Below, piece after piece: positions 1 to 16,595 of a stretch of DNA of 32,000 bases. The notes beneath the pieces were generated by a model. The model did no database searches. It saw only the letters and a list, made by a program, of their open reading frames with translations, and was not told the DNA's origin. Source of the stretch: Pseudoalteromonas translucida KMM 520 (GTDB taxonomy: Bacteria; Pseudomonadota; Gammaproteobacteria; Enterobacterales; Alteromonadaceae); contig NZ_CP011034.1 in assembly GCF_001465295.1 (NCBI RefSeq), positions 1,980,001-2,012,000 of the forward strand. The letters are read 5' to 3'. Numbering within the stretch: the stretch's first letter is position 1; each line of letters starts with the position of its first letter. Both the position numbers and the translations under genes were made by a program.

Positions 1-346
1 CATTGATTTTTTCAAAAGAACTTCTTGAAGCTAAATATTTTGAAAACAAAGGTTCATACACTTTCTTTTCAAAGGTTTCGTCGGTGTAACCAATATCTTC
101 TAAATTACTCGATAATGACTTAAACGTATCTTCACACCAATTGCATACCTGTGCAGTTCGAATAATATGAATAGCAATTTGCTCAACTGCCATCCATTGT
201 GTTAGAAATGCCTGAGTATGATGCCCCTGCTTTTGCAATCCATTTACTTCGACTTCAATATTTACGATTAAATCATTGCCACTTTTAAGTTTTTGTAATA
301 ACCGTCTTTTAACATTAGCGTCGCTAGTCAACCTTGGAGGTGCCAT
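1..346 (-). CDS. hypothetical protein, N-terminal 115 codons only (runs off the left edge); next gene of the BREX operon after pglX'
   Basis: Hand translation of the minus strand from ATG (346-344) gives MAPPRLTSDANVKRRLLQKLKSGNDLIVNIEVEVNGLQKQGHHTQAFLTQWMAVEQIAIHIIRTAQVCNWCEDTFKSL...SSFEKIN, with no stop down to position 2. The start lies 1 nt after the pglX' stop (348-350). No family recognised, and I cannot say whether this is pglZ. Confidence 0.55.
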   Translation of the reverse strand, partial: MAPPRLTSDANVKRRLLQKLKSGNDLIVNIEVEVNGLQKQGHHTQAFLTQWMAVEQIAIHIIRTAQVCNWCEDTFKSLSSNLEDIGYTDETFEKKVYEPLFSKYLASRSSFEKIN

Positions 347-347
347 A

Positions 348-3300
348 TTAATTCACCACCTTTCCGTGGATGGCTTTTACATCGCTCAGTAAATTGCCAA
401 ATTTGCCGTAGTTAACTTTTACCCCGTCGTCGAGGTCGAGAGTAATACGTTTTTCAGCGAAGTGTTTGAGTTGTTCATCAAAAGAGCGAAGTTCGGCTTG
501 TTTTCCCCCAAGTGACTTTAAGTCTTTTTCGATAGTACGTGCTTCCGTGCCTGTGGCTTGTAGTTGTTGCTCAGATAACAAATTATATTGAGCTTCGTAT
601 GCACCAATCAGCGGTATAAGATACTCAGTACGCATACGCGACAAAGTGCTTTCGTTATAGCGATGCATATAGACTAAACACTCAAAGGCTTTTTCTTTTC
701 CTGAGCTAAATAACCAGTATATTGGCTTTCTTGCATACTTAGTGACATGTTCTTTAAAAAATTGAGTTGATAAGTATCTTCTAAGAGTATTTTCTGCTGA
801 CTCAGCCTTCTTAGGATTAATTGCATTAAGTATCAAGCTATCAGCAATGAAATTAATATTTTGGTTTAAGCTCTCAGCTCCCCAAACACTTTTTACAAAC
901 TCAACTACCCTGCCTGTTGCATCATCTTCATATACCCAAGAATCCTCTGCTAACGGCACAATTGCATCATCATCCGGCTGAAAGCTTGAGTACATTCCCT
1001 TGTTTAATACCGATTTAAACTGACTAACGTCTTGGTTTGCAAAAACCACCCCGTCACCGGTATAACTAAATCGACCCATTATGCAGCCTACAATATAACT
1101 TATTAAACTAACCACGGTATCCGATCTAAAAGTATTAAGCACCTTCGCTTTATAAGCATCAGGTTCGCTTTCGTCTAAATTCGTACCAACAGTAAAGTAT
1201 GGGTTTTTATAGAAAGACAAATCAGATGCAGATATTACTACTCGCTCATTTGCGTCAATTTGATAGCTTTCATCTACATGCTCATTTAAGCTTTGCTCCA
1301 GCGAGCTAATATAATTAACAAATTGATGTGTATCAGATTCAATCGTTAAAAAGTCATCTGCTATCAATGTCGAACTTGCCTTAAGATGTTCAAGCATAAT
1401 AGGATGGCTGCCAAACGCTATTGATGTTTCTACGCTATGCCAGTCTTCTTTTGAACACTCAACAAGTTGCTCCACAGTATCTGCAATAGCTGCTTTTTCA
1501 TCATCAACAATAGGTAACACGGCTAAATCATTTGGTCTTATTGAGCCTAAAACCCCTTCTGGATACACCGTTTTGACTAAACGGTTAAACATTGAAGAGT
1601 TTAACAAACCCAACTGAAACAACCTTGTTTGCTCATCAGTAATATTTTCACTTGGGGCAAAGCAAGGGCCTGACGCATCATAAATAGCGTCAGATGGTAC
1701 TTCTCGAGCATTAAACGTCGGCGCCAAAGCGGTCCAAGAGTTAACTTTGCTTTCTAATTGTTGATTAAGTTGACCAATTTCAGATTCCTTCGTATTTACA
1801 TAGCCATTAATGTTTCCATACCAACGCCTATACTCTCCACCTGAAATTATGGGCTTCCAACTGCCTTGTTCGCTATCTAAATCATGATTATTTAGCTCCC
1901 ACCACTGCCTAACATATTTATCACGGTCAATGTTTTTACCTGCTGGCAGTGTTGCCACACTAGACTTAAAAGGCTGCCCCAACGAAAATGCATTCTGTAA
2001 ACCTTCTGATGCCCAATACGATAACGGTTTAGTTGGAACGTTTGACATTTTCGCTAACGAGTTGCACACATTGCGTGAATTATCACAAGGAAAGCTTTTT
2101 GGTCTAGGCAAAATGTATTGCTCTTCTAATGTATCAGAGCTTTCGTCTATTTGTTTATCAATGATATCCGCATTGCTTGTAAAGCAATATCTCGCTTCAA
2201 AGCTTGGTAGGTGGCTATTTCTGATCACTACAGCATTCATTTGGTGTTGGTCAGGTATAACCCCACGGCCTAAATGAGCCAGACTGCATATTGAGTGTTT
2301 ATCAAATAAAATGTCTCGCATTTTTTCGTATCGAGACATAAACATCCAGCTATCTTTTAAAATCAAAGATGTGAAGCCATCAGGCTTAAGTAAATCTAAC
2401 GTTCTACTAAAAAACATCGTCGCCAAATTACTCTTAGTTGCAGCAAAGTCTTTTTTAGCAGCTTCTTTTAAATTAATTAACGACTCATCAGCCCCTAGTA
2501 TCCCTAAATTAGGTGGGTAGGTCACTATGGCATCATATTTTTGTTCAAGTGCTTCCTTAATGGCAAAACTATTTTTACCATCACCAATTTGCTCTGGCGA
2601 TGCTATTGCACCTAGCCCATTAGCATCAGATAGCAGCAATACATTAGGTTGGTAACCTCTTGTTAAAAAAAGTCTATCTTGTTCAGCAGATCGTAATACC
2701 AAGGTAAGGGACGATATTTGAATTGCTCGTTCATCAATATCAAAGCCCACAAGGTTATGCTCAAAAATTTCTTGCGGGATATCCCGTGCTCTAAACCCTT
2801 TTTCGAGATAAATATTCACTAAAATGTCGTACGCGAGTAACAGATTTCTTCCAGAGCCACACGCAGCATCTAAAACTTTTAATTCGCGAAGGTCATAGCT
2901 AGGTGTTGTCGCAATATTAGTAATATGCTGGTTAACTTCATCTGGTTGCTCAGCATCAGGCAAAAAATATTCCAAAGAGCTAGCAATCGTTGAATCAGGA
3001 AATAACTCAAGCCATCGTCTAGCCAAAGTATTTTCTACCATATATTGGCTGACCCACTTTGGCTCTGTCGTTTGGGTGGCTTTTGCTAGTTCCTTAATAC
3101 CTGTTTTTTTTGGTAATTCTTTTTTTATATCGGCGTAATAAGCAGAAAACAACTGATTAAACACATCAATAGTCTGCCAAAATGATTCATCTAAGCCATC
3201 TACAACAAAACGAACAATAGATTTAGTCCGCGTTAAATCAGATGGCAATAGTTCATTAACCCAGCGAGTGTCTTCACCAAATAACTTATTAATTCCCTGA

Positions 3301-3695
3301 GCGAGTTGTTCACATTGACCAAGTAACGCCATTCTAAATAGCTTTTCGTCGTGAGTTCCCTCTAAAACTAACTCTATCACCTGAGATTTGTCTAAATTAA
3401 AGTCGTCCGTTAGCTCTTCTAGGTTTTCTACAATTTGAAACGCGCTTGTTTGCAATGGGTGTGATAAAACCCTAAAACCGTGCGGTAACTTATCATTGAG
3501 CTCAAGGTATCTAATAGCGCATAAGCGGTTAAACCATGTATAGGCAGCTTGCTCTACAACTTCCTCTTCCCCAAACTTATTGATTTTTGCAATCAAATCG
3601 TCGCTCTTATCAATTAAGTTTAGCTGTGACTCAATTGCAGCTTTAAATAAAACTCGTGCTTCTAGTGCATATTTTTTTATTAATTTTAGTTCCAT
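348..3695 (-). CDS. PglX-family (BREX) N6-adenine methyltransferase paralog with a degenerate catalytic motif IV (YPPN instead of NPPY); probably catalytically impaired
   Basis: 1115-aa ORF. The N-terminus (AYTWFNRLCAIRYLELNDKLPHGFRVLS), the SAM motif I (KVLDAACGSG) and the last ~125 aa (PIYWLFSSGKEKAFECLVY.HRYNE.TLSRMRTEY...LDLDDGVK.NYGKFGNLL.DVKAIHGK) are collinear with the neighbouring PglX. Motif IV reads AIVTYPPNLG (YPPN = 2508-2519). Confidence 0.8.
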   Translation of the reverse strand: MELKLIKKYALEARVLFKAAIESQLNLIDKSDDLIAKINKFGEEEVVEQAAYTWFNRLCAIRYLELNDKLPHGFRVLSHPLQTSAFQIVENLEELTDDFNLDKSQVIELVLEGTHDEKLFRMALLGQCEQLAQGINKLFGEDTRWVNELLPSDLTRTKSIVRFVVDGLDESFWQTIDVFNQLFSAYYADIKKELPKKTGIKELAKATQTTEPKWVSQYMVENTLARRWLELFPDSTIASSLEYFLPDAEQPDEVNQHITNIATTPSYDLRELKVLDAACGSGRNLLLAYDILVNIYLEKGFRARDIPQEIFEHNLVGFDIDERAIQISSLTLVLRSAEQDRLFLTRGYQPNVLLLSDANGLGAIASPEQIGDGKNSFAIKEALEQKYDAIVTYPPNLGILGADESLINLKEAAKKDFAATKSNLATMFFSRTLDLLKPDGFTSLILKDSWMFMSRYEKMRDILFDKHSICSLAHLGRGVIPDQHQMNAVVIRNSHLPSFEARYCFTSNADIIDKQIDESSDTLEEQYILPRPKSFPCDNSRNVCNSLAKMSNVPTKPLSYWASEGLQNAFSLGQPFKSSVATLPAGKNIDRDKYVRQWWELNNHDLDSEQGSWKPIISGGEYRRWYGNINGYVNTKESEIGQLNQQLESKVNSWTALAPTFNAREVPSDAIYDASGPCFAPSENITDEQTRLFQLGLLNSSMFNRLVKTVYPEGVLGSIRPNDLAVLPIVDDEKAAIADTVEQLVECSKEDWHSVETSIAFGSHPIMLEHLKASSTLIADDFLTIESDTHQFVNYISSLEQSLNEHVDESYQIDANERVVISASDLSFYKNPYFTVGTNLDESEPDAYKAKVLNTFRSDTVVSLISYIVGCIMGRFSYTGDGVVFANQDVSQFKSVLNKGMYSSFQPDDDAIVPLAEDSWVYEDDATGRVVEFVKSVWGAESLNQNINFIADSLILNAINPKKAESAENTLRRYLSTQFFKEHVTKYARKPIYWLFSSGKEKAFECLVYMHRYNESTLSRMRTEYLIPLIGAYEAQYNLLSEQQLQATGTEARTIEKDLKSLGGKQAELRSFDEQLKHFAEKRITLDLDDGVKVNYGKFGNLLSDVKAIHGKVVN
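351..730 (-). repeat. direct repeat copy A: 3' end of pglX', roughly 80% identical by eye to 4162-4541
   Basis: By-eye alignment finds long identical runs, e.g. cctttccgtggatggcttttacatc, gtacgcatacgcgaca and cctgagctaaataaccagta. Weaker homology continues about 1 kb into both genes. Boundaries are approximate. Confidence 0.8.
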
Positions 3696-4157
3696 TTACT
3701 TATTTCCCTTTAAGCTAATTAGTTCATGGTGAACTTTCCAAAAGTCAGCGGCCTTAAATAGTCCAAATAGCTTTATTTGATTCGAAAAGCGGTGTTCAAA
3801 AACATACCAATTTATTTTTCCAAACTTAACTTTCTTTATATCAGCATGACCCGCAACATTTCTTATATGGTAAAAATAACTTTTCAGAATATTATTTTTG
3901 GCATTATGAAAATGTATTACGTTTTTGCTCTCAATATTAAGGTTTAAGTCAAACGTATAAAACTCAGCTTTAATTAAATCTAAGTTTCCATGAGGTATTA
4001 AATCGAATGCATACTGCTCTTTTAAACGCTTGTAAGCTTTACTTGAGCGAATATTAAAGCGCTGATTAAGCAAGTCACCATTTTCCCATAAAAGAATTAG
4101 CCGCTCGTAAAAGTCGGCTAATTCTTTACGGGTAAAATGCTGCGGATTGCAGTTCAC
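3696..4157 (-). CDS. small (153 aa) protein embedded between two pglX genes; candidate minimal HEPN-domain RNase (RNxxxH motif)
   Basis: The ORF abuts both neighbours: its stop directly adjoins the pglX' start, and its start is 1 nt from the pglX stop. Sequence YFYHIRNVAGHADIKK contains R99-N-V-A-G-H104 (3846-3863). This matches the HEPN Rx4-6H signature with the common N after R, located in the C-terminal half of a ~150-aa protein. Function is inferred from motif and context only. Confidence 0.5.
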   Translation of the reverse strand: MNCNPQHFTRKELADFYERLILLWENGDLLNQRFNIRSSKAYKRLKEQYAFDLIPHGNLDLIKAEFYTFDLNLNIESKNVIHFHNAKNNILKSYFYHIRNVAGHADIKKVKFGKINWYVFEHRFSNQIKLFGLFKAADFWKVHHELISLKGNK

Positions 4158-4158
4158 G

Positions 4159-7100
4159 TTACTTCACCGCCTTTCCGTGGATGGCTTTTACATCAGCTAA
4201 TAGGTTGCCGAATTTTCCGTAGTTGGCTTTTACGCCGTCGTCTAGGTCAAGCGTAATGCGCATTTCGGCGTAGTGCTTTAACTGCTCATCGAAAGCGCGC
4301 AGTTCGGCTTGTTTTTTCTCAAGCGACTTTAAGTCTTTTTCAATACCACGAGATTCTGTGCCTGTGGCTTGCAGTTGTTGCTCGGAAAGGAGTGTATGCT
4401 GAGCCTCGTATTTACCCATTAGAGGCGTAACGTACTCGGTACGCATACGCGACAGCGTACCTTCGTTATAGCGGTGCAGATAAACTAAGCATTCAAAGGC
4501 TTTTTCTTTACCTGAGCTAAATAACCAGTAGATAGGGCGTTTTTTGTAGGTCTTGCAATGATCTTTAAAGAATTGCGTTGAGAAATAACGACGAACGGTA
4601 TCCATCGCACTTTCGCCCTTCTTAGGCTTCAATGCATGTAAACATAAAGTTTCAGCTACAAATTCTAGGTTTTCCGATAAGTGTTCGACACCCCAGACTT
4701 TTTTTACAAATTCTTTAAAGCGAGATGTTGCATCGTCGTCAAACAACCATTCTTCTGAGGCTAGTGGAATAATACTGTCATCGTCGGCAGTGAATGACTT
4801 GTAAACTCCGCCTGTTAGAAGGTCTTTAAAACCTTTATTACCAGAGCGTGCGTAAACTAACCCATGCATATCAAGAGAGTAGCGTCCCATCATGCAACCT
4901 AGACAGTATGACAGAAGTTCGCATAATGTATCTGAGCTAAAAATACTGGCGACACTCTCTTTTTCTTTTACATTAGAGTATCTATATTGAGCATTTGCCA
5001 GCAATGTAATATCGGAAATTTCTTTTTGAGTAGATACATCATCTACCCCCAATAACTGCTCTGAGTGAGCATCTATCTCAGTCTCTAATTCTAGTAATAA
5101 TTCTGCGCGACTATGCGACGAAATAAAATAATTCGACATAGATTCAGACAACAATTTGCCCGAACTCTTTTCAACCAATGGAGAAACTTTGAAGTCAGGT
5201 GATGTTTCAAATAAATTAAAATCTTCACGAGATATATCTATAGCTTGGTCAGCAAATGTTTTAAGTTTTTTGTCACTATAAACAGCGTCAGGTACTGGTA
5301 TTTTTGAAATGTGCCCACTCTGAAAGTCAAGAGTTGCAGACAAAACCTTTAGAAAGCTTGTCACAATTCCTGAGTTTAAATATCCTAGTAAGCTTGATAT
5401 ATCCCCGTCTTTAAAAATACAGGGGCCTGTAGAATCAAAAATAAAGCCTTCTTCAAAATAACGAAAAGAAGGTTTAATTCCAATACGCGTCCAATTTATT
5501 CCTTCTTTGAAAAAGTTTTTTGAATTTCTTAAGTTTGATTTAGGAAAAGATTTTAACTCTTTGCCGTCTTCATCCCAGTTAATTACAAACTCTCTATTCC
5601 CATACCAACGTTTAACACCACCACCTTTTAGGTACGGAACCCACTTTACGGAGCTTTCTATTTCAAACCATGCTCTGAGAAATTTTTCGTTATCCCCAGT
5701 ATCTATTCCTTTTCCAGCACTTGCGCTTAGAGATAAGGGTTTGAATCGTTCGAAACTGTCCCTTAAGCTATCACTAAGCCAATAAGCAATTGGACTTCCG
5801 CTAATTTTTTCAAATTCGTTGTTATTTACAAAGTGAGTTCTTTCATTTTTACTAGATGTAAATAAAACTCCTTTATCCGCAGACTGTGACCCACTATTTA
5901 GATCAATATAACTCCCCAAATAATTAGGAATGTGGTGATTTGAGAACGTTAAGCAGCTTCCCAGAGCAATTTTTGAATTCAAAGAAGGAAAGCTATTAAA
6001 CCCTATATGATTGATGTTCAGTAACGTAGATTTTGTCAACAATTTCTTTCTAAACTCATCAAATGACGACAAAAACATCCATCCTTGAATTGTGATAAAG
6101 GAGGCGACTCCAGTTTTTGCTAATTGTTTTTTTGCAGCTATGACAAAACAACTATATAAGTCTGATTTTGCTTCAGAATAGTTTTTGGATACGTATGCTT
6201 TCAACTCTTTATTCATGCCATTACTGCCCATGTATGGAGGGTTAGCAATAATGCAATCATAGTTTTGAGCTAGCGCTATAGATTGACATATTAAAGGAAA
6301 CAGTATCATTGACGCTTGCTTGCCAGCAGGATCAGGCCCTTGGATTTTATTTTTCAGCTCAGCTTTAAGTGCCAAAAGGTTATTTATCAATTGATGATCG
6401 ATATCTATAAGAGAGCCACGTGTTTTTGCTTGTAAAAAGGACGACTTTAGGGCTTGCAGTAGTTCAAAATAGTCTTTGTAAATACTTGTTGGTTGAATAA
6501 ACTCTTCAGGTGTATCAAACAAGCCTCTTGTGACACCTGCTTGTTGATTACCTTCTAAATCCAAAGCCTTCCATAATTTCGTAATATCAAGGTGTTCAGT
6601 AGATTGCAGCGAGAATACGTTTAATGATACTTCACCATCTTCAACTCGTTGAAAGATGCGCCTGTCGTCTTCACGCGCTTTCATCATTAATGCAAAACCA
6701 GCAAGCTGCGCCGCCCGATCATCAATATCTAAACCATAAATGTTCTTGGTAAGGATTAGTTCGGGTATTTCACGAAGGCGGTAACCACGTTCAAGATAGA
6801 TTTCACGCAATACTTCATATACTTCAACTAAAATATGACCTGAGCCACAGGCAGGGTCGAGCACTTTAATTTCTTCTGGGTCTATACTGGTTGGCGTTAT
6901 AGCTTTTAGCTGTTCAATAACATCTTCAGACTGCTCAGCAGGTTCAATGTAATATTCCATTTTGCCTTTAAGCTCTGAGTCTGGGTAAGTGGCTAACCAT
7001 TGCCTACCCACAGAGTTTTGTACTAGGTATTTGACAATCCAGTTTGGCGTAAATAGCTGAGTGGCTGCTGGAATGTCTTCTGACTTAACGACTTTACCGA

Positions 7101-7821
7101 TAACAGCGTCTTTATGCTCTGAAATGTAAAACTGATATAGCCAACCGATAACTTCAATTTCTTGCCAGTCTTCCTCTGGGATATCGTTGATTAACCCTTT
7201 TAGGATAGAATCTGTTTTAGTCAGGTTATTAGGTAACAATAACTCTGTTGCATCATCAATCGCCTCAAACGCTAAGCCTTTAAAGATCTGAGGCATAATT
7301 TTAGCTAATTGATGACATTGGCCTAATAGCAATTCACGATACAGCTCTTCTTCTTTATCACCGGCTAGTTGCAACTCAATAATATGGTCTTTATCTAAAT
7401 TTAAACTTTCAGCTACATCGGATGCATGATTTAAGATTTCAGGTAGGCTATCGGCATTACTAAGATGGCTCTTTACAGGGGAAAGCACACGAAAACCATG
7501 ATCAAAGTAGTCATGTATTTCCATATAACGCAGTGCTGCGAGGCGATTAAACCATGTATAGGCCATTTCACGGGTGAACATATCGTACTTTTCTTGGTAG
7601 GTCGCAGACGCACGTTCAGCAATTTTGCTTTCTAAACGCTTACGTTGCTCACCTTCTTTGCGAGTAAAAGCACGGCCTTCGATTATGGCAGCCCCGCCTT
7701 CAATGCGAACTTCTGCTATTCGGTCTTCATATATACCAAAGTGAGCAGCACGCTTTCTAATGGCTTCAATAAATTGTTTACGCGCTTTAGGTGCGTATGC
7801 TTTTAAGTTTTTAGTGTTCAT
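4159..7821 (-). CDS. pglX: BREX type 1 N6-adenine DNA methyltransferase PglX
   Basis: 1220-aa ORF directly downstream of brxC. Motif I is KVLDPACGSGHILV and motif IV is CIIANPPYMGS (NPPY = 6232-6243). PglX-typical GWLYQFYISEHKD and ATQLFTPNWIVKYLVQNS are present. Size and position fit pglX. Confidence 0.9.
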   Translation of the reverse strand: MNTKNLKAYAPKARKQFIEAIRKRAAHFGIYEDRIAEVRIEGGAAIIEGRAFTRKEGEQRKRLESKIAERASATYQEKYDMFTREMAYTWFNRLAALRYMEIHDYFDHGFRVLSPVKSHLSNADSLPEILNHASDVAESLNLDKDHIIELQLAGDKEEELYRELLLGQCHQLAKIMPQIFKGLAFEAIDDATELLLPNNLTKTDSILKGLINDIPEEDWQEIEVIGWLYQFYISEHKDAVIGKVVKSEDIPAATQLFTPNWIVKYLVQNSVGRQWLATYPDSELKGKMEYYIEPAEQSEDVIEQLKAITPTSIDPEEIKVLDPACGSGHILVEVYEVLREIYLERGYRLREIPELILTKNIYGLDIDDRAAQLAGFALMMKAREDDRRIFQRVEDGEVSLNVFSLQSTEHLDITKLWKALDLEGNQQAGVTRGLFDTPEEFIQPTSIYKDYFELLQALKSSFLQAKTRGSLIDIDHQLINNLLALKAELKNKIQGPDPAGKQASMILFPLICQSIALAQNYDCIIANPPYMGSNGMNKELKAYVSKNYSEAKSDLYSCFVIAAKKQLAKTGVASFITIQGWMFLSSFDEFRKKLLTKSTLLNINHIGFNSFPSLNSKIALGSCLTFSNHHIPNYLGSYIDLNSGSQSADKGVLFTSSKNERTHFVNNNEFEKISGSPIAYWLSDSLRDSFERFKPLSLSASAGKGIDTGDNEKFLRAWFEIESSVKWVPYLKGGGVKRWYGNREFVINWDEDGKELKSFPKSNLRNSKNFFKEGINWTRIGIKPSFRYFEEGFIFDSTGPCIFKDGDISSLLGYLNSGIVTSFLKVLSATLDFQSGHISKIPVPDAVYSDKKLKTFADQAIDISREDFNLFETSPDFKVSPLVEKSSGKLLSESMSNYFISSHSRAELLLELETEIDAHSEQLLGVDDVSTQKEISDITLLANAQYRYSNVKEKESVASIFSSDTLCELLSYCLGCMMGRYSLDMHGLVYARSGNKGFKDLLTGGVYKSFTADDDSIIPLASEEWLFDDDATSRFKEFVKKVWGVEHLSENLEFVAETLCLHALKPKKGESAMDTVRRYFSTQFFKDHCKTYKKRPIYWLFSSGKEKAFECLVYLHRYNEGTLSRMRTEYVTPLMGKYEAQHTLLSEQQLQATGTESRGIEKDLKSLEKKQAELRAFDEQLKHYAEMRITLDLDDGVKANYGKFGNLLADVKAIHGKAVK
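4162..4541 (-). repeat. direct repeat copy B: 3' end of pglX
   Basis: See copy A. Both copies have the same orientation (direct, not inverted). A second shorter shared block lies at the 5' ends (ttaaaccatgtataggc at about 3527-3543 and about 7547-7563). Confidence 0.8.
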
Positions 7822-7846: not shown

Positions 7847-10800
7847 TTATCTGATACGCACTTTATTGTTGCTATTAACTAATGTCGTTAGTTTTGCTTT
7901 TAGTGCTGATAAGTAGTCCTCAATATCTTGCTCGGTTTCTATCACACCAGCGGCATTTACCTCTCGCATCACACTTGAGGTATCAACAGAAACTATTTTT
8001 TTCGGTGTTGGTTTTGCTACTTTTTTTGGCTCAGTTTTTGTTGGTTTGTAGTTACCACTTTCTGAGTCTATACCTGAAGCTGATGCTGGTTCGGGGGCTT
8101 GTTTAGCCTTTTGTGCTACTTCTTTGGCTTTTTGCTCTGCGAGTGCTTGCTGTTGTTCAATGAACTTATTGATTAGTTCGTAGGCATCTTCTTCAAGTGT
8201 GGCAGCTTCAGTGATCTCTTGATGTATTTCAGCAATTCCTTGCAGTGTATCAACACGCTTTTTAGCATTTTGTAGTGGGTAAAGCGCTTTATTGCTAATA
8301 TCGCTGTTTACCGCGCCAGCGGCTTTAATTTGCTCAGTTACATGCTCGATACGAATATCGATTCTTGCCTTTGCATGAGTGCGCTTTTCAGTTAACAAAG
8401 CCTCGTTAACTTTGTTTACACTTTCAATAAGCGGTTCTACTTCGCGTATGTCACGGTACGGGCGCTCTTTATTAAAAATAGATTCTAACTTTTGCAGCGC
8501 TGCTATCGCATTTTCCTCTTTTTCGAGTGCTATGCGGTTGCGGTCAAAGTCGATAGTGAGTGCTTTGTACAACTTTTGCCAAGTTGAAAATTGAGTTTCG
8601 TAGAAGTTTTCAAGATCTTGGTAGTCTTCTTCAAAATCAAGTAGCTCATCACCATTAGCGAGGAATGATTCAATAAACTGATAGCTTGATTGCGCTTCAA
8701 TTAAACCCGCCAGTAATACTCGGCCATTCTCAATATCTTTAACACCTGGGTAATGCCCCGTTGATGCTTTGTTTGCAAAGCCATCAAGCTTCTTTTTCAT
8801 GGTGCTTATATTAGTTTGAGCAATGTTGAACAGCTCTTTTTCACTGTCTGGAGCATTTTTACCAAACACGTTTTTAAACAATTTAGCCGCACGGTTTAAG
8901 TTAGCTTCAGACTGTTGTTTAATACGTCGAATACGAAGCTCTGCGCGCTTTCTAACTTGTGTTAGATTGTCGTATGCACTTTTTAAAGGGACTTCTTGTT
9001 GACGCATTTGAAAGCAAATTTTGTTAGCTAATGCTAAACGCGAAATGATTAAAATTATTTCTTCATCATTCCAACCAAATGGACGTTTTGAAAAGCGTTT
9101 TACAATGTCTTCTGCGGTAATTGCTCTGCCAGTGTCATCGCCAAGGGTTATGAACTTTTCTACTTCTAAAGACGCTAACGGATTTATTTCATCAGCGTTT
9201 AAATCGAGACCAATTTGACTAACATCGTCTGCAACTAAGGTATTTTGAATCTCGCGGCGAATATCACCTGGAAATGGTTTAACTAACTTTAATTTACTGA
9301 ATGTGTTTTCAATTACGTAGCGATAAAGCTCTTGAAGTATTGAGCTTACCGCTCCGCCTTTTGGATTTTGTTTAGAGCCTAATGCGTAAAATTCAGCATC
9401 TTTTAGTAGCTCCTCTACTTCTCCTATCAAGCGGCGATTTCGATCTTGGTTTTCTGTCGCTTTTTGATGAAGTAACTGTTGTTGTTCTGGGCGTTTACCA
9501 GAGTTGCCGCGTAAAAACTTACTTGTTCGAATAAACGTTTCGATGTCTCTGAATACTCTGTTATTTTCAGCCAACTTGATGATTATCGAGCCACTATCAC
9601 CGTCCATTGAACGATTAGCACATACGGTAGATGTATATTCATCGTAGTTGGGATCTCTAGGTGTGATCACTTTCACTACTAAGTCGTTTTCTTGAGAGCC
9701 ATCTCGTGGACTACCATTACAAAAACGGCTGATAGGGAAATCTTGCTTGTTTTCAGGGTAGCGATAGTTCGCTTCACGACGCAGCACATCATCAAAAATT
9801 AGATCGCTAATCTTCTTAGTTTGATCAGATAACTCTATTTCAGTTTTTTGAATTTCCTGCTCAATTTCTTTTTCTTCGTTAGTAAGGAAAATGTACTCGT
9901 CACCTTGGCGAGCGATAAGCATATTAAGCTCTAGAGCATTTAAAGCCTGTTCAATTTCGCGCCTTAACGCTAATCGGTCTTCATCGACTTTGCCTACACA
10001 CAGGGTAACTAAGTTATCTAACGTTGACTTAATTACATCGACATAACGAATTAAAAACAGGGTTTTTAATATATTCAGCGTAAACGGCGATATAGATTCT
10101 TTAACGGATGCTTGGTCGATATCTTTTTTAACCGATGTATCGAGGAAACTTTCGATAGCTGGGTAGAAAAAATATAACGGAATTAGAACTCCGACATTTT
10201 CATTTCGGACTTGTTTGGCAGCACTTTGGAATGCATCTAACAAAGATCGCTCACCACGGCTTAAATGTAAGCCTGTTGCACCCGCTTTACGAATAGCTTC
10301 AAATATTTTTTGAACTAAAATATAATGATAAGGTACAAATGGATAGCTATTAATAAAGCTACTTGCATCTTTATAGTTAGCTAACTCAGCGGTTGTTGTA
10401 CTGTCAAAAGCTAACTGGTTTCTTAGAATGTCACCCTTTTGATCATACAAGTCCTGGAGCTCAATACGAGCCGCCTCTTCTTTTGATAGCAGGCGTTTCT
10501 CTATCACCTCACTGGTGTTTGAGCTTGAAAGAGATAGGCGTTCAAATCGGCCTTGGATTTTTGAGAAATCATGACCTTTTGAGCCTGTCATTTGCCCAAT
10601 TACTGCATCGATGTCTTCTTGAGAAGTAACAACGACCCAAGCACGGCCTTCACAAATAGTACCGAGGTTTTCAGTGATTGTTTGAAGTTTCAGCATCATC
10701 TGGGCGTTGTTACCAATGAACTGCCCCACTTCATCCACAAAAAACAACACTCGGCGGTCTGAGCTTACATCTAGGTATTCTTTTACCCATTTACAAAAGT

Positions 10801-11536
10801 TGCTAACGTCTAACGTGAAGTTGTTTTCAAGTTGCTCAACCCACTGCCTTGCTGATTCAGTTGATTGATTAGTTACCTTACCAAGCGCATCTGCCATGTC
10901 GTCTCGGAAGAAGTCGTAAGCATCTCTTTCTTCTATCCAGTTAGCAGACGCTAACGCATTGAACTCTTTTTTGAACTGTTCAAATACACCTCGTTGGTCT
11001 AATTCGCGTTCAAGGTGCGCAATATGAGGGTGATCTCCACTGAAGCCCATTTGCTCGTTAAAAACTTTTAAGAACACTTTTAATATTGCATCATCGCCGT
11101 CATCTGTGTTGGCACGGCTGTCGATATTAAAAAGGATGACGGTATTATCTTTGGTAACCGCAGTGTCTATTTCACCTAATAAGAAGCCATCTAGGTTTTT
11201 ATCTTTGAAAAACTCGATAGCTGATTTATCAAACTCACCGTTTGTCGCTTGAATGTTTTGTAAAAGGTATGACAATATTTTGATGAAGTGAGATTTACCT
11301 GAACCAAAAAAGCCACTTACCCAGATCCCTAATTTACCTGATGCAGCTTTTGCTTTTGGATCACGCACTGAAGGCATATACGCATCGAAGAACTCTTCGA
11401 AGTGTTTTGCTAATTCGGTGGTGATTACATATTCATCTAGCTCGGTAAAAACAGTGCTGTTTTCTAATTGGTCAGCTTTTACAACACCATTAATTGGTCG
11501 GTTTATATCTTTAGTAAATAAGTCTTTAATTTGCAT
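7847..11536 (-). CDS. brxC: BREX ATPase BrxC (P-loop NTPase)
   Basis: 1229-aa ORF with Walker A GFFGSGKSHF and Walker B VLFFVDEVGQF. It lies between the two small brxA/brxB-sized genes and pglX. A lysine/proline-rich low-complexity linker sits near the C-terminus. Confidence 0.9.
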   Translation of the reverse strand: MQIKDLFTKDINRPINGVVKADQLENSTVFTELDEYVITTELAKHFEEFFDAYMPSVRDPKAKAASGKLGIWVSGFFGSGKSHFIKILSYLLQNIQATNGEFDKSAIEFFKDKNLDGFLLGEIDTAVTKDNTVILFNIDSRANTDDGDDAILKVFLKVFNEQMGFSGDHPHIAHLERELDQRGVFEQFKKEFNALASANWIEERDAYDFFRDDMADALGKVTNQSTESARQWVEQLENNFTLDVSNFCKWVKEYLDVSSDRRVLFFVDEVGQFIGNNAQMMLKLQTITENLGTICEGRAWVVVTSQEDIDAVIGQMTGSKGHDFSKIQGRFERLSLSSSNTSEVIEKRLLSKEEAARIELQDLYDQKGDILRNQLAFDSTTTAELANYKDASSFINSYPFVPYHYILVQKIFEAIRKAGATGLHLSRGERSLLDAFQSAAKQVRNENVGVLIPLYFFYPAIESFLDTSVKKDIDQASVKESISPFTLNILKTLFLIRYVDVIKSTLDNLVTLCVGKVDEDRLALRREIEQALNALELNMLIARQGDEYIFLTNEEKEIEQEIQKTEIELSDQTKKISDLIFDDVLRREANYRYPENKQDFPISRFCNGSPRDGSQENDLVVKVITPRDPNYDEYTSTVCANRSMDGDSGSIIIKLAENNRVFRDIETFIRTSKFLRGNSGKRPEQQQLLHQKATENQDRNRRLIGEVEELLKDAEFYALGSKQNPKGGAVSSILQELYRYVIENTFSKLKLVKPFPGDIRREIQNTLVADDVSQIGLDLNADEINPLASLEVEKFITLGDDTGRAITAEDIVKRFSKRPFGWNDEEIILIISRLALANKICFQMRQQEVPLKSAYDNLTQVRKRAELRIRRIKQQSEANLNRAAKLFKNVFGKNAPDSEKELFNIAQTNISTMKKKLDGFANKASTGHYPGVKDIENGRVLLAGLIEAQSSYQFIESFLANGDELLDFEEDYQDLENFYETQFSTWQKLYKALTIDFDRNRIALEKEENAIAALQKLESIFNKERPYRDIREVEPLIESVNKVNEALLTEKRTHAKARIDIRIEHVTEQIKAAGAVNSDISNKALYPLQNAKKRVDTLQGIAEIHQEITEAATLEEDAYELINKFIEQQQALAEQKAKEVAQKAKQAPEPASASGIDSESGNYKPTKTEPKKVAKPTPKKIVSVDTSSVMREVNAAGVIETEQDIEDYLSALKAKLTTLVNSNNKVRIR

Positions 11537-11571: not shown

Positions 11572-12177
11572 TTACGGTACTAGTTTAAATGCACGATAAT
11601 AGTTATTTGATTCGATTCTGCCAAAGGGTTTTAACGCTGTACCGTCGTACTCACCAGGATAGAAAAGTACCGTTGGTACGTTGCCTACCTTAGCATGTAG
11701 AGCGTTTAATAAGCCGTGGCCACGAATAATAGGCCACGCGCTCCCAAGCCCATGAAGTAAAATGAACTCAGTTTTGTTTTTTTCACAAGAGCCGAAGTCT
11801 ATTTTTGAGGCGATAAATTCAGCGACTCGGTTTTGCTCAAGAGGCCCCTTTAATGCGTTGAATAACGCGTCATCACCGCGCTCTTTTTGTACTTTAAATG
11901 CTCTTTCAGTAAGTTTGCGGGAATCGAGCAATTCAATAATGGCTTCAAACAAGTTGATGCTTTTAAAATTACGCCCACGTTTATCAAGGCGCTCTGTCAT
12001 GTATTCTAAATGCTCTCTTACAGTCAATTCTGACTCTGGTGGGTAGTCAAATACGTAAAAGCCAATCTCGTTTCCTAAACCTTGGTTTTTTAAAAAATCT
12101 TCGCTTTCAATCTTGGGCTGAATTTCATCAAGCCGCTCATGAAGTCGTTTTTGTTGTTTAGTTTTAAGCTCAACCAT
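11572..12177 (-). CDS. brxB: BREX protein BrxB (DUF1788-type), assigned mainly by size and synteny
   Basis: 201-aa ORF. Its start overlaps the brxA stop by 1 nt (TAATG), and it lies immediately upstream of brxC. Confidence 0.7.
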   Translation of the reverse strand: MVELKTKQQKRLHERLDEIQPKIESEDFLKNQGLGNEIGFYVFDYPPESELTVREHLEYMTERLDKRGRNFKSINLFEAIIELLDSRKLTERAFKVQKERGDDALFNALKGPLEQNRVAEFIASKIDFGSCEKNKTEFILLHGLGSAWPIIRGHGLLNALHAKVGNVPTVLFYPGEYDGTALKPFGRIESNNYYRAFKLVP

Positions 12178-12800
12178 TAGTGCAACTCCATCGCTGAAAT
12201 AATATCGTCTCTGTTGATCTCTAGAAGCAAGTCTCTCACTTCTGGTAACAAATATACATTTTGTATTTTTTTATTCCGTGTTGTTTCTATATAACCAGCG
12301 TCAGCTATGGTTTTAAAAGCTACTTGAGATATTTTGTAAGTCGATGATTGTGACATTTGAGCTAACTCAGGGAATAATCTAATGCGTTCATCCCAAAAAG
12401 ACTCCCAATCAGCTACATCTAAACTTTCACGGAACATACGTTTAGCATCTAACACTACATTGCGCATAAAATCAGCAAGTAATGTGCAGTTAATTAACGT
12501 AGCTGCAAACATTAACTGAGTTGATAGCTCAGTGCTACCAAATGCGATTAGTTCTAGGTATTTGTCTGACATATCTTCTAAACGCTTTTTGATAGTAGCC
12601 GCATTCCTCTTTGCTGAAGCGTCAGAGCGTTTTTGTAAAATATTTTGGTTTACAATGGCTTCTAACCACTCTTTTTGTGACGGTTTTTTAAGTAATAGCT
12701 CAGCGACTGTCTGACTTTCTTTGATCATTAAGCTGCCACCAATAAGGTCGCCAAGGTAGTCTTTGTATGAATTCATTTGTATTATGCTTGGAGTCGTCAT
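12177..12800 (-). CDS. brxA: BREX protein BrxA (DUF1819-type), assigned mainly by size and synteny
   Basis: 207-aa ORF. It is the first structural gene after the WYL regulator, abuts the brxR stop codon and overlaps brxB. Confidence 0.7.
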   Translation of the reverse strand: MTTPSIIQMNSYKDYLGDLIGGSLMIKESQTVAELLLKKPSQKEWLEAIVNQNILQKRSDASAKRNAATIKKRLEDMSDKYLELIAFGSTELSTQLMFAATLINCTLLADFMRNVVLDAKRMFRESLDVADWESFWDERIRLFPELAQMSQSSTYKISQVAFKTIADAGYIETTRNKKIQNVYLLPEVRDLLLEINRDDIISAMELH

Positions 12801-13688
12801 TTATAGTTCTTCCAATTCAGGCACATAACCAGGAGCAATTGCTAAGTTTTCTGCGCCGAAAAGGGTTTGACGGTTTTTGAGCCACAGTTGGTATTCAGCA
12901 CCAACAAGTTCTGCATCAGCGGTACAATCAACATTCCAACGTCTCAATAAATAACCAGCCATAGCAGCCCTCACATTCAGCGACAGTTTTCCTCCGTCCA
13001 TTCCATAGTCTAATGCGATTGCAGTAGGATGACTTACGTTATGGGGGTGAGGAACGAGTTGTAACGGCATCATGCGCATCCAATGGTGGTCGCTTATTTT
13101 GACTTCTAAAGGTTGTATCTCTGAATATTCTAATACGGCCTTTGTAATTCTAGTTAATACAAAATCCCGAAAACTGTTAGATTTACGATCATAAGCTCTC
13201 ACATGCCAGCGCAAACCATTATCGACGATACTGTGGGGAACGATATCTCTTTCTCCTGAGCCGCTACTTAGGGAGGTGTAAGTGATATTAACTGCTTTTT
13301 GATTAATTACTGCTTGAACCAACTTTGCGACAATAAAAATATCAGGAATATTTAACTGGCTTGGCGCTTCGACGGGGAATGTCGTATCGCCAATAGCATC
13401 AAAGCCATCGGTTATTTGGTTAGAAAGTTTTACAAGGGTTTTGCGAGGGTCATGTGTGAATAAGGGCCTAAAGCCCGCAGCTTGAAAATATCTCTTTTCT
13501 TTTGAGTCATATACCATATTTTCAGGGCACAACTCTTTATAGAGATTGATATCACGAGTAGCCGAGGTTAACCCTTTCTCGAAATAAGAAACTATTTCAG
13601 CTCTCGTAACATATCCAACAAAAAAAAGTTTAAAATCAATGTATGACAAACGTTGTTTTTGAGTAAAGCCAATATTGTTTAAATTCAT
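12801..13688 (-). CDS. brxR: WYL-domain transcriptional regulator, BrxR-like
   Basis: 295-aa ORF at the head of the BREX operon. The N-terminal region resembles a winged HTH (QRLSYIDFKLFFVGYVTRAEIVSYFEKGLTSATRDINLYKE). The central segment GLRWHVRAYDRKSNSFRDFVLTRI is typical of WYL domains. Size and position match BrxR-type regulators of BREX loci. Confidence 0.7.
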   Translation of the reverse strand: MNLNNIGFTQKQRLSYIDFKLFFVGYVTRAEIVSYFEKGLTSATRDINLYKELCPENMVYDSKEKRYFQAAGFRPLFTHDPRKTLVKLSNQITDGFDAIGDTTFPVEAPSQLNIPDIFIVAKLVQAVINQKAVNITYTSLSSGSGERDIVPHSIVDNGLRWHVRAYDRKSNSFRDFVLTRITKAVLEYSEIQPLEVKISDHHWMRMMPLQLVPHPHNVSHPTAIALDYGMDGGKLSLNVRAAMAGYLLRRWNVDCTADAELVGAEYQLWLKNRQTLFGAENLAIAPGYVPELEEL

Positions 13689-16562: not shown

Positions 16563-16595
16563 CGTTTTAAAATACCTAAACTTAATTTGAAGCTA

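What the first reader, a model, noticed from the sequence alone, without database searches (positions are those of the whole stretch)
348..7821. Type 1 BREX operon interrupted after pglX by a small ORF plus a second, diverged pglX
The minus-strand gene order is brxR-brxA-brxB-brxC-pglX(4159-7821)-orf153(3696-4157)-pglX'(348-3695)-orfX(1-346). Gaps are 0-35 nt or 1-nt overlaps, so this looks like one transcription unit. Canonical type 1 BREX runs pglX-pglZ-brxL. The two PglX proteins share the N-terminal block (AYTWFNRL..RY.E..D...HGFRVLS), the SAM motif (KVLD.ACGSG) and a near-identical C-terminal ~125 aa. Their central parts, the likely target-recognition region, look unrelated, and pglX' is 105 aa shorter. 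I know of no described BREX architecture with tandem pglX genes bracketing a small ORF. The region after pglX is, however, a place where accessory defence genes have been reported embedded in BREX loci (e.g. a type IV enzyme, PARIS). This could therefore be a new embedded module.
Basis: partly seen in the sequence, partly recalled or inferred. Interest (0 to 1): 0.8.

Follow-up and report, generated by a model that had tools for sequence, protein, structure and literature searches.

The report
BREX operon with a non-catalytic PglX twin
A phage-defence (BREX) operon of a marine Pseudoalteromonas carries, besides its normal DNA methyltransferase PglX, a second, old and conserved PglX-like gene whose catalytic NPPY motif is swapped to YPPN. 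It probably senses something rather than methylating DNA, and no paper I could search describes it.

Summary
The gene order and spacing are as reported. On the minus strand lie brxR-brxA-brxB-brxC-pglX-orf153-pglX'-orfX, with gaps of 0-35 nt.

The interpretation needs correcting.
- **pglX' is an old paralogue, not a recent duplicate.** It belongs to a small, separate clade, found here only in gammaproteobacteria or unassigned metagenome contigs, with 24-39% identity to its partner pglX outside the C-terminus.
- **The catalytic motif is swapped in every member.** Motif IV is (Y/F)PPN instead of NPPY, and about 104 residues of the methyltransferase domain are missing. The SAM-contact residues, the target-recognition domain (TRD) and the C-terminal domain (CTD) are kept.
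- **The gene is functional.** It is under purifying selection (dN/dS about 0.13). Its TRD is among its most conserved parts, whereas the partner pglX TRD has been swapped between near-identical loci.
- **Its position is constant.** In 10 of 10 informative loci it sits between a canonical pglX and pglZ.
- **orf153 is not an obligate partner.** It occurs without pglX', and it has decayed in two sister loci that keep pglX'. The neighbours vary: two Rx4H (HEPN-like) small proteins, a TIR protein, an SF2 helicase and GmrSD.

My best reading is a non-methylating, SAM-binding PglX pseudoenzyme that acts as an auxiliary sensor or decoy in BREX. I class it as a new variant of a known kind. The function is inferred, not shown.

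The parts
12801..13688 (-). brxR-like WYL-domain regulator, first gene of the operon
   Evidence: Pfam WYL E 3e-13. The L008 orthologue carries WHD_BrxR, WYL and BrxR_CTD.
12177..12800 (-). brxA
   Evidence: Pfam BrxA E 6e-45; PADLOC BrxA E 2e-64.
11572..12177 (-). brxB
   Evidence: Pfam BrxB E 1e-35; PADLOC BrxB E 1e-67.
7847..11536 (-). brxC (ATPase)
   Evidence: PADLOC BrxC full length, 1365 bits; Pfam BrxC domains.
4159..7821 (-). Canonical pglX (1220 aa), the active-type methyltransferase and specificity subunit
   Evidence: Full-length match to NCBIfam BREX_1_MTaseX (1318 bits) and PADLOC PglX. NPPY is intact. The central cassette differs from near-identical loci: TRD 41-42% identity, against NTD 92-96% and last 160 aa 99%.
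6232..6243 (-). pglX motif IV, NPPY (residues 527-530)
   Evidence: Translation; alignment.
3696..4157 (-). orf153 (PTRA_a2155), a small conserved protein of unknown fold. GTG start 1 nt after the pglX stop; its stop abuts the pglX' ATG.
   Evidence: 16 clusters at 49-100% identity, always in the pglX-to-pglZ gap, one or two genes after pglX. dN/dS 0.04-0.15. No Pfam, PADLOC or NCBIfam hit. AF2 model pLDDT 82, alpha+beta, with no fold match.
3846..3863 (-). orf153 conserved RNVAGH (Rx4H) motif; R99 invariant, H104 in at least 90% of the 16 sequences
   Evidence: Alignment A3; translation.
348..3695 (-). pglX' (1115 aa), a PglX paralogue with a swapped catalytic motif
   Evidence: PglX profiles match in two stretches and skip about 100 positions. 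Clade of 17 clusters at 43-94% identity. Only 3 clusters at 50% identity among 1.84 billion representatives. dN/dS 0.12-0.14.
2508..2519 (-). pglX' motif IV, YPPN (residues 393-396) in place of NPPY
   Evidence: Translation. (Y/F)PPN in all 18 clade sequences and in every pglX' gene read from loci L006-L017 and L019.
2850..2876 (-). pglX' SAM-binding motif I, VLDAACGSG (residues 274-282)
   Evidence: Translation. G280, S281 and G282 are invariant.
1509..2039 (-). pglX' target-recognition domain (about residues 553-729, mapped from E. coli BrxX 651-837)
   Evidence: PDB sequence alignment. Highest-identity domain in 5 of 6 comparisons, second to the MTD in win-L008: 96-99% in near loci, 68% vs Alteromonas, 53-56% at the deepest.
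1..346 (-). orfX: first 115 codons of a 198-aa probable HEPN protein, cut by the window edge
   Evidence: 98% identical to P0137 (198 aa). Invariant RNxxxH at residues 163-168 of the family, outside the window. 7 of 9 members give weak HEPN_RiboL-PSP hits, best E 0.0018. PADLOC Csx1/Csm6 HEPN E 3e-4. All-helical model, pLDDT 68.

Best explanation
pglX' is a conserved, non-methylating paralogue of the BREX methyltransferase PglX, that is, a pseudoenzyme. It is co-transcribed with a complete type 1 BREX system that has its own active-type pglX.

What it keeps: the N-terminal domain, the SAM pocket, the target-recognition domain and the strongly conserved C-terminal domain. What it has lost: the N and Y of the catalytic NPPY tetrapeptide, which are swapped to YPPN, and a segment of about 104 residues of the methyltransferase domain.

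I infer that it binds SAM and docks into the BREX machinery (BrxB/C/Z) like PglX, but recognises one invariant ligand and does not write methyl marks. It would therefore act as an auxiliary sensor or decoy subunit. Candidate ligands are a phage anti-BREX protein that targets the PglX TRD and CTD (Ocr-like), a fixed or modified DNA feature, or the SAM level.

Its output would go either to BREX itself or to the variable neighbours that often sit beside it: small Rx4H/HEPN-like proteins such as orfX and perhaps orf153, a TIR protein, a roughly 440-aa SF2 helicase, and GmrSD.

Shown: the sequence features, conservation, selection and genomic association. Inferred: loss of catalysis, SAM binding, docking into BREX, and the sensor or decoy role.
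For: 1. Motif IV is (Y/F)PPN in all 18 clade sequences and in every pglX' gene recovered from loci L006-L017 and L019. A more distant 2007-aa relative has HPPN. The partner pglX genes have NPPY, or NSPY in L006.
2. In E. coli BrxX, NPPY (508-511) holds the flipped adenine, and Y511A abolishes DNA binding, methylation and defence (PMC11842806, read).
3. The five SAM-contact residues named in that paper (I239, Q244, I355, L536, F540) read L, Q, I, L, F in pglX'. Motif I and the GxDID strand are also kept.
4. dN/dS is 0.12-0.14 over dS 0.24-1.7, similar to pglX (0.13-0.21), so the gene is functional.
5. The pglX' TRD has the highest identity of its domains in 5 of 6 comparisons (second to the MTD in win-L008) and reaches 96-99% between the nearest loci. 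The canonical pglX between loci with 98%-identical brxC has a swapped central cassette: TRD 41-42% and CTD_a 46-48%, flanked by NTD 92-96% and last 160 aa 99%.
6. Where the flanks are visible, 10 of 10 loci have a canonical pglX upstream (window, L006, L007, L008, L009, L010, L014, L017, L018, L019) and 10 of 10 have pglZ downstream (L006-L010, L014-L016, L018, L019).
7. The clade is sharply separated. It scores 548-556 bits against its own profile, against 190 or less for ordinary PglX, with only 3 clusters at 50% identity in 1.84 billion representatives.
8. Neighbours include effector-type domains: TIR in L006, the probable HEPN orfX, a third Rx4H family in L017 and L019, and GmrSD in L012 and L014.
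9. Ocr binds BrxX through the TRD and CTD (PMC11842806), which are domains pglX' retains.
Against: - No experiment exists, so loss of activity is inferred from motif chemistry only. A strictly conserved YPPN could support an unknown chemistry or a different substrate.
- No neighbour is obligatory. The helicase is absent from L015, L018 and L019, small ORFs are absent from L007, and L015 and L019 have pglX' directly before pglZ. A fixed sensor-to-effector wiring is therefore not supported.
- If Y511 is needed for DNA binding, pglX' may not bind DNA in the PglX manner. That weakens the 'second DNA sensor' version.
- The HEPN call for orf153 rests on a six-residue motif. The confident AF2 model is alpha+beta, not a HEPN helical bundle.
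- Only about 20 loci are known, so the association statistics are thin.
Confidence: 0.55

Rival explanations
1. pglX' is still an active methyltransferase with an unusual motif IV. It would give this BREX system a second, fixed recognition motif, making a two-specificity BREX.
For: The SAM pocket, motif I, TRD and CTD are all conserved, and the gene is under purifying selection. YPPN keeps an aromatic residue and an Asn around the PP core, and it is strictly conserved rather than degenerate.
Against: Both residues known to do the chemistry and base stacking are displaced. From general knowledge, N6-adenine methyltransferases use (D/N/S)PP(Y/F/W), and I know of no active enzyme with an aromatic residue first and Asn fourth. 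A text search for YPPN with 'methyltransferase' found nothing relevant. Y511A alone inactivates BrxX (PMC11842806). About 104 residues of the methyltransferase domain just before motif IV are missing. A defence specificity subunit would be expected to diversify its TRD, as the partner pglX does, yet the pglX' TRD is among its most conserved domains.
Confidence: 0.15
2. orf153 + pglX', with orfX and the helicase, would form a self-contained embedded defence system that merely lodges in the BREX hotspot and works independently of BREX, as BrxU or PARIS do.
For: The pglX-to-pglZ gap is a documented hotspot for embedded systems (PMC12839542 section 35; bioRxiv 10.1101/2024.01.29.577857). In the window lineage the four genes are tightly packed. 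The helicase resembles the motor of type IV restriction enzymes in PADLOC (E 1e-16 to 1e-19). HEPN-like and TIR partners look like effectors.
Against: The components assort independently. orf153 occurs without pglX' in 4 distinct loci (L001, L002, L003/L004, L005), the helicase occurs without pglX' in L001, L002 and L005, and pglX' occurs without the helicase in L015, L016, L018 and L019. orf153 has decayed in L009 and L010. pglX' was never found outside a BREX-1 locus: none among 72,556 plasmids, and both genome hits lie inside BREX. It also keeps the PglX NTD and CTD, which are the family's conserved, presumed BREX-docking parts.
Confidence: 0.15
3. pglX' is a spare specificity cassette for phase-variable or recombinational switching of pglX, as in the known inverted pglX duplicates with a recombinase.
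For: Duplicated pglX segments used for programmed inversion are documented (PMC9881135). The two genes share conserved 5' and 3' ends. The canonical pglX central cassette has indeed been exchanged between related loci.
Against: The copies are in direct orientation, with no recombinase in the operon and no inverted repeats between the genes. The longest exact shared run is 25 nt, and the best repeat is 79% over 300 nt. pglX' is a complete ORF with its own start codon. Its TRD is only 24-28% identical to the partner TRD and is stable across loci whose pglX TRD changed. Swapping it in would import YPPN only if the exchange reached the methyltransferase domain.
Confidence: 0.04
4. pglX' is a decaying duplicate with no function.
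For: The canonical catalytic motif is lost and there is an internal deletion.
Against: The ORF is intact at 1114-1171 aa in all full-length copies, dN/dS is about 0.13, the same substitution is conserved down to 43% identity, and the clade spans several gammaproteobacterial orders.
Confidence: 0.02

Closest known systems
Canonical type 1 BREX (brxA-brxB-brxC-pglX-pglZ-brxL, often with brxR), e.g. E. coli HS, Acinetobacter NEB394, Salmonella StySA
   Same: brxR, brxA, brxB, brxC and pglX are present in the canonical order. In near-identical loci pglZ and brxL follow. The canonical pglX has NPPY and a diversifying TRD.
   Different: Extra genes lie between pglX and pglZ. They include a second full-length PglX paralogue that lacks NPPY, which described BREX-1 systems do not have.
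Phase-variable BREX with an inverted partial pglX copy and a recombinase (Lacticaseibacillus rhamnosus/casei; PMC9881135)
   Same: There are two pglX-derived sequences in one BREX-1 locus, and the N- and C-termini are more conserved than the middle.
   Different: There the second copy is inverted, partial, flanked by repeats and served by a recombinase, and it is used to swap the TRD. Here the second copy is direct, complete, separately translated, motif-swapped and has a stable TRD. There is no recombinase and no long repeats.
Embedded accessory defences in the BREX pglX-pglZ gap (BrxU/GmrSD, PARIS, standalone HEPN, OLD-family ATPase with nuclease; PMC8565348, PMC12839542, bioRxiv 10.1101/2024.01.29.577857)
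   Same: The location is the same, and some cargo types are shared: a HEPN-like small protein (orfX), GmrSD in L012 and L014, and an OLD-like ATPase with HNH in L014. The proposed logic is also similar, namely backup or guard functions against phage counter-defence.
   Different: Known embedded systems are unrelated to BREX core proteins and also occur outside BREX. pglX' is a paralogue of a core BREX subunit and was found only inside BREX-1 loci.
Active plus pseudo-methyltransferase pairs such as METTL3-METTL14 (general knowledge; an analogy only)
   Same: A catalytically degenerate paralogue (EPPL instead of DPPW in METTL14) is retained next to an active N6-adenine methyltransferase and serves in substrate binding or as a scaffold.
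   Different: It is eukaryotic, acts on RNA and is an obligate heterodimer. BrxX is reported to act as a monomer within BREX (PMC12839542 section 17), and no pglX-pglX' interaction has been shown.
PrrC-EcoprrI (a HEPN anticodon nuclease embedded in a type I R-M locus and released by a phage anti-restriction peptide; general knowledge, also cited in bioRxiv 10.1101/2024.01.29.577857)
   Same: Small Rx4H/HEPN-like genes are nested in a methylation-based defence operon. A guard model is plausible.
   Different: PrrC has an ABC-ATPase domain and a proven mechanism. Here the HEPN assignments are weak (orfX) or unsupported by the fold prediction (orf153), and nothing has been tested.

Membership tests
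Type 1 BREX system | brxA, brxB, brxC and pglX in one cluster | tested here: met
   Pfam, PADLOC and NCBIfam hits well above cut-offs for all four genes.
Type 1 BREX system | pglZ and brxL present | tested here: inconclusive
   Both lie beyond the window's left edge. In L010 (brxC 98% identical) and L008, pglZ follows, and brxL too in L010. The source contig could not be fetched.
PglX / BrxX (BREX-1 adenine methyltransferase), tested for pglX' | Overall homology to the PglX profile (NCBIfam NF033452, cut-off 500 bits) | tested here: met
   811 bits, in two stretches that skip profile positions of about 370-495. PADLOC PglX 837 bits.
PglX / BrxX (BREX-1 adenine methyltransferase), tested for pglX' | Catalytic motif IV (D/N/S)PP(Y/F/W) | tested here: not met
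   YPPN at residues 393-396. (Y/F)PPN throughout the clade.
PglX / BrxX (BREX-1 adenine methyltransferase), tested for pglX' | SAM-binding motif I and SAM-contact residues | tested here: met
   VLDAACGSG is present. BrxX I239, Q244, I355, L536 and F540 correspond to L, Q, I, L and F. Binding itself was not tested.
PglX / BrxX (BREX-1 adenine methyltransferase), tested for pglX' | N6-adenine methylation of a 6-bp non-palindromic motif | not testable with these tools
   Needs a methylome or a biochemical assay.
Phase-variable pglX shufflon | Inverted repeats between the copies plus an adjacent site-specific recombinase | tested here: not met
   The copies are direct, there are no inverted repeats between the genes, and the longest exact shared run is 25 nt. 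No recombinase lies in the operon; the nearest integrase is at 14468-15712 on the other strand, outside it.
HEPN superfamily, tested for orfX (198-aa family) | Rx4-6H motif in an all-helical domain | tested here: inconclusive
   Invariant RNxxxH and an all-helical AF2 model with pLDDT 68. There are sub-threshold HEPN_RiboL-PSP hits in 7 of 9 members (best E 0.0018) and a Csx1/Csm6 HEPN hit at E 3e-4. No significant PDB fold match.
HEPN superfamily, tested for orf153 | Rx4-6H motif in an all-helical domain | tested here: inconclusive
   The motif is met: RNxAxH, with R99 invariant and H104 in at least 90% of 16 sequences. The all-helical fold is not met: the confident model (pLDDT 82) is alpha+beta with six strands and has no HEPN match in PDB. 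No Pfam HEPN hit even at E <= 1.
BrxHI / BrxHII helicases (BREX types 2, 3, 5, 6), tested for the roughly 440-aa helicase of related loci | Homology to BrxH profiles | tested here: not met
   Only E 0.006-0.007 to BrxHI. The best matches are the helicase parts of type IV restriction enzymes and PbeA. The gene is not in the window.

The most novel reading that the evidence does not exclude
pglX' is a natural 'reader-only' PglX. It would be a SAM-loaded pseudo-methyltransferase that assembles with BrxB/C/Z and acts as a guard or decoy for the BREX specificity subunit. It would detect phage anti-BREX factors (DNA mimics that bind the PglX TRD and CTD, or SAM depletion) or a fixed DNA feature, and then trigger defence or abortive effectors (HEPN or TIR neighbours). 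This would be the first case of a BREX core component duplicated into a dedicated non-enzymatic sensor.
Probability: 0.3. Interest if true: 0.85.

Novelty: new variant of a known kind. Interest (0 to 1): 0.62.

Why it matters
How BREX turns PglX's recognition of unmethylated sites into a block on phage replication is still unresolved. In the canonical enzyme, sensing and methylating cannot easily be separated.

This clade of PglX paralogues looks like a natural separation-of-function variant. It has kept the SAM pocket, TRD, CTD and BREX context, and it has lost the catalytic tetrapeptide. Its conserved TRD contrasts with the rapidly exchanged TRD of the partner pglX in the same loci.

If it proves to be a sensor or decoy, it adds a new layer to BREX: paralogue-based guarding of a defence system's own specificity subunit. 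It would also give experimenters a handle on which PglX surfaces talk to BrxC, PglZ and BrxL.

There is a practical point for annotation too. NCBI's pipeline names these proteins 'BREX-1 adenine-specific DNA-methyltransferase PglX', which is probably wrong as a statement of activity. Methylome-to-gene assignments in such genomes should not count them as a second methyltransferase without evidence.

Tried and rejected
- **Fetching the source contig to see the left flank.** Exact-sequence look-ups of orf153 (with V or M as first residue), pglX' and P0001 all failed. The species-representative genome scan did not return P. translucida. I inferred the flank from L008, L009 and L010 instead.
- **orf153 as a HEPN protein.** The conserved RNxAxH motif suggested it. 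However, the AF2 model is alpha+beta, no PDB or BFVD match reaches E below 0.1, and no Pfam signal appears at E <= 1. I left it as unknown.
- **orf153 as a homologue of the Alteromonas 158-aa gene after pglX'.** It is not; that gene encodes a TIR protein.
- **Gene conversion between the 3' ends of pglX and pglX'.** C-terminal identity within a locus (78-82%) is no higher than pglX' against a foreign pglX (80%), and the domain is conserved family-wide (74% to E. coli). DNA identity is only 79%. Rejected as recent conversion.
- **Shufflon or phase variation.** Rejected.
- **Pseudogene.** Rejected by dN/dS.
- **The helicase as an obligate pglX' partner.** Rejected by loci L015, L018 and L019, and by L001, L002 and L005, which have the helicase without pglX'.
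- **Other databases.** A plasmid search found only canonical PglX at 30% identity or less. Rfam and tRNA scans of the window were empty. The promoter and terminator scan was uninformative.

Full report
**1. What is in the sequence**

The window comes from Pseudoalteromonas translucida KMM 520; orf153 is 100% identical to PTRA_a2155. On the minus strand lie eight genes:

| Gene | Coordinates | Note |
|---|---|---|
| brxR-like WYL gene | 12801-13688 | |
| brxA | 12177-12800 | |
| brxB | 11572-12177 | |
| brxC | 7847-11536 | |
| pglX | 4159-7821 | 1220 aa |
| orf153 | 3696-4157 | |
| pglX' | 348-3695 | 1115 aa |
| orfX | 1-346 | start of the gene only, cut by the window edge |

Family assignments are unambiguous for all but orf153 and orfX. 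Junctions are 0-35 nt or 1-nt overlaps. The orf153 GTG lies 1 nt after the pglX stop, and the pglX' ATG directly follows the orf153 stop. Neither promoter-like nor terminator-like sites exceed chance. One transcription unit is therefore plausible, though not shown.

**2. How the two PglX proteins compare**

BLASTP aligns them over almost their whole lengths at about 39-40% identity. By domain, mapped from the E. coli BrxX structure paper (PMC11842806) through a sequence alignment to PDB chains 8zek and 9ewz, the identities are:

| Domain | pglX vs pglX' identity |
|---|---|
| NTD | 39% |
| Methyltransferase domain (MTD) | 30% |
| TRD | 25% |
| First part of CTD | 33% |
| Last 160 aa | 79% |

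The last 125 aa are 85% identical. The central parts are therefore diverged, not unrelated. The C-terminus is similar, not near-identical. DNA identity there is 79% over 300 nt, and the longest exact run shared by the genes is 25 nt. The C-terminal domain is conserved across all PglX; the window pglX is 74% identical to E. coli PglX there. The similarity therefore does not indicate a recent duplication or conversion.

- pglX' lacks the equivalent of BrxX residues about 394-497, a segment inside the methyltransferase domain. It also has about 36 fewer residues at the N-terminus. Together these account for the 105-aa difference.
- The catalytic motif IV reads IIANPPYMG in pglX and IVTYPPNLG in pglX'. 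The N and Y have changed places.

**3. pglX' belongs to a distinct, conserved clade**

A search of 5.8 billion protein clusters returned 17 clusters covering 97-100% of pglX' at 43-94% identity, with lengths of 1114-1164 aa. Then there is a sharp drop to ordinary PglX, at about 36% identity over 65% of the length.

All 18 sequences have (Y/F)PPN(L/M)G and the same internal deletion, while keeping motif I. Every pglX' gene read from loci L006-L017 and L019 shows the same features. Their partner pglX genes have NPPY, or NSPY in Alteromonas halophila.

I ran an exhaustive HMM search of 1.84 billion representatives at 50% identity, using a clade-specific profile (A2).
- Only three representative clusters scored 548-556 bits.
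- One intermediate scored 270 bits. This is P0147, a 2007-aa protein with a long N-terminal extension and motif HPPN.
- Ordinary PglX scored 190 bits or less.

The named sources are all gammaproteobacteria: Pseudoalteromonas, Alteromonas halophila, a Chromatiaceae MAG and a Porticoccaceae MAG ('Ca. Reddybacter'). The rest are metagenome contigs, including Tara ocean samples. None of 72,556 plasmids carries a clade member.

**4. It is a functional gene with a constant target**

dN/dS against four orthologues with dS 0.24-0.44 is 0.125-0.139, and 0.123 at dS 1.7. This is similar to pglX at 0.13-0.21.

The five residues that contact SAM in E. coli BrxX (I239, Q244, I355, L536, F540; PMC11842806) correspond to L, Q, I, L and F in pglX'. 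In that paper NPPY holds the flipped adenine, and Y511A abolishes DNA binding, methylation and defence.

The domain-wise comparison between loci is the most informative result.
- Between the window and L010, brxC is 98% identical with dS 0.26. Yet the canonical pglX has NTD 92%, MTD 65%, TRD 42%, CTD_a 46% and last 160 aa 99%. Its central specificity cassette has been replaced.
- pglX' is 88-96% identical throughout in the same comparison.
- The pglX' TRD is among its most conserved domains. It scores 96-99% in near loci, 68% against Alteromonas and 53-56% at the deepest split, and it has the highest identity in five of the six comparisons.

A diversifying TRD fits an arms-race DNA specificity. 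A frozen TRD points to one invariant ligand.

**5. Genomic context**

I recovered 19 related loci and annotated them by BLAST against reference proteins and by Pfam and PADLOC.

Wherever the flanks are visible, pglX' lies after a canonical pglX (10 of 10: window, L006-L010, L014, L017, L018, L019) and before pglZ (10 of 10: L006-L010, L014-L016, L018, L019).

The window's own left flank can be read from near-identical loci:
- L008: brxR-A-B-C-pglX-orf153-pglX'-orfX-helicase(444 aa)-pglZ
- L010: the same arrangement with brxL, but without an intact orf153

Everything else in the gap varies.
- orf153 appears with pglX' only in the window lineage (window, L008, L011).
- orf153 appears without pglX' in L001, L002, L003/L004 and L005.
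- In L009 and L010 orf153 is a remnant that keeps only its first 29 or so and last 17 or so codons.
- A roughly 440-aa SF2 helicase (ResIII + Helicase_C + zinc ribbon) is frequent. Its closest PADLOC matches are the motors of type IV restriction enzymes and PbeA. It also occurs without pglX' (L001, L002, L005) and is missing from L015, L016, L018 and L019.
- Other occupants are a TIR protein (L006), GmrSD (L012, L014), an OLD-like ATPase with HNH (L014), an FRG-domain protein (L016), an HSP70-like protein (L001), and SbcCD-like or RmuC genes before pglX (L018, L019).

This matches the published picture of the BREX core as a hotspot for embedded 'backup' effectors (PMC12839542 section 35; bioRxiv 10.1101/2024.01.29.577857).

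**6. The small ORFs**

orf153 forms a family of 16 clusters at 49-100% identity, under purifying selection, with the conserved stretch KSYFYHxRNxAxHAD, which contains an Rx4H motif. Its AF2 model (pLDDT 82, pTM 0.78) is alpha+beta. It has no significant match in PDB or BFVD, and no Pfam, PADLOC or NCBIfam signal. I leave its function open.

orfX is the start of a 198-aa family. That family has an invariant RNxxxH, an all-helical model and repeated sub-threshold HEPN hits: RiboL-PSP in 7 of 9 members and the HEPN part of Csx1/Csm6. It is probably a HEPN protein.

A third, unrelated small family lies between pglX and pglX' in L017 and L019. It also carries RNGIVH and gives a weak CARF_HEPN hit.

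**7. Interpretation**

Established: a conserved PglX paralogue with a swapped catalytic motif is restricted to BREX-1 operons that also encode a normal pglX.

Inferred: it binds SAM, does not methylate, and uses the retained NTD and CTD to join the BREX machinery. BREX needs a BrxBCXZ assembly, and the NTD is proposed as an interaction surface (PMC11842806; PMC12839542 section 17).

Its frozen TRD, and the fact that the phage inhibitor Ocr grips the BrxX TRD and CTD (PMC11842806), make a decoy or guard for anti-BREX factors attractive. A reader of a fixed or modified DNA feature, or a SAM-level sensor, is equally compatible with the data. The occasional TIR, HEPN-like and GmrSD neighbours fit an effector-coupled guard. 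Because none of them is obligatory, the output may simply be BREX itself.

I give the umbrella 'non-catalytic auxiliary sensor or decoy subunit' reading a confidence of 0.55. The rivals are:

| Rival | Confidence |
|---|---|
| Active methyltransferase with a novel motif | 0.15 |
| Self-contained embedded module independent of BREX | 0.15 |
| Spare cassette for recombinational switching | 0.04 |
| Decaying duplicate | 0.02 |

**8. Novelty**

The known 'two pglX' arrangement is the inverted partial copy with a recombinase, used for programmed TRD inversion (PMC9881135). This locus fails that family's defining features.

The most comprehensive recent BREX survey (PMC12839542) mentions no second or inactive methyltransferase and no NPPY variants. 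Searches for a second pglX, for a catalytically inactive BREX methyltransferase and for YPPN found nothing relevant.

I therefore class this as a new variant of a known kind: a BREX-1 sub-architecture with a pseudo-methyltransferase paralogue. It is rare, with only a few dozen sequences known. Its function is unproven, which tempers the score.

Noticed in passing
window 4159-7821 compared with L010:4870-8595 and L009:6007-9726: The canonical pglX is a mosaic. Between loci whose brxC is 98% identical (dS 0.26), the pglX NTD (92-96%) and last 160 aa (99%) are nearly the same, but the MTD (65%), TRD (41-42%) and first part of the CTD (46-48%) have been replaced (pglX dS 1.24). This looks like cassette exchange of the specificity region by homologous recombination at the conserved ends.
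   Followed up: partly
window 14468-22785: Upstream of brxR lies a low-GC stretch (0.32-0.34). It holds a tyrosine integrase (14468-15712, +), an HD/TraI_2-like protein (15678-16562, +) and three minus-strand ORFs of 1035, 845 and 192 aa with no PADLOC hit. The 1035-aa protein has a weak Phage_integrase match. The BREX locus probably sits in an integrative island. No tRNA gene is in the window.
   Followed up: partly
L007:1848-8628 and L014:80-6496: In the Chromatiaceae MAG and a related metagenome contig the canonical pglX is split. There is an N-terminal gene of 646 aa (NTD + MTD) and separate C-terminal genes (573 aa; or two alternatives of 593 and 558 aa in L014). In L007 a 1008-aa reverse-transcriptase gene lies between the halves. 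In L014 an orfX-like 199-aa gene does. This may be a split-PglX specificity-switching design, like the Brevibacterium case in PMC9881135.
   Followed up: no
L006:5115-8762: The canonical pglX of Alteromonas halophila has NSPY rather than NPPY at motif IV, while its pglX' neighbour has YPPN.
   Followed up: no
L010:8596-8869 and L009:9727-10000: orf153 is a deletion remnant here. The first 29 or so codons and last 17 or so codons are recognisable, and the middle has been replaced. pglX', orfX and the helicase remain intact.
   Followed up: yes
L018:10001-16024 (protein P0147): A 2007-aa PglX'-like protein with motif HPPN and an N-terminal extension of about 880 aa (helix-hairpin-helix-like repeats, weak sigma-70 region 4 hit). 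It sits between a canonical pglX and pglZ, in a locus with SbcCD-like genes after brxC. It may be an outgroup of the pglX' clade.
   Followed up: partly
L002:4820-9999 (Pseudoalteromonas sp. T1lg48): A Schlafen/AlbA_2 protein and a HATPase_c_4/Fic-like_C protein are inserted between brxC and pglX. pglX there is called as two ORFs (272 + 955 aa), which suggests a frameshift. orf153 and the helicase are present without pglX'.
   Followed up: no
L017:780-1211 and L019:9561-10004: A third small protein family (143-147 aa, 60% identical to each other) occupies the slot between pglX and pglX'. It carries an RNGIVH (Rx4H) motif but has no detectable similarity to orf153 or orfX.
   Followed up: partly
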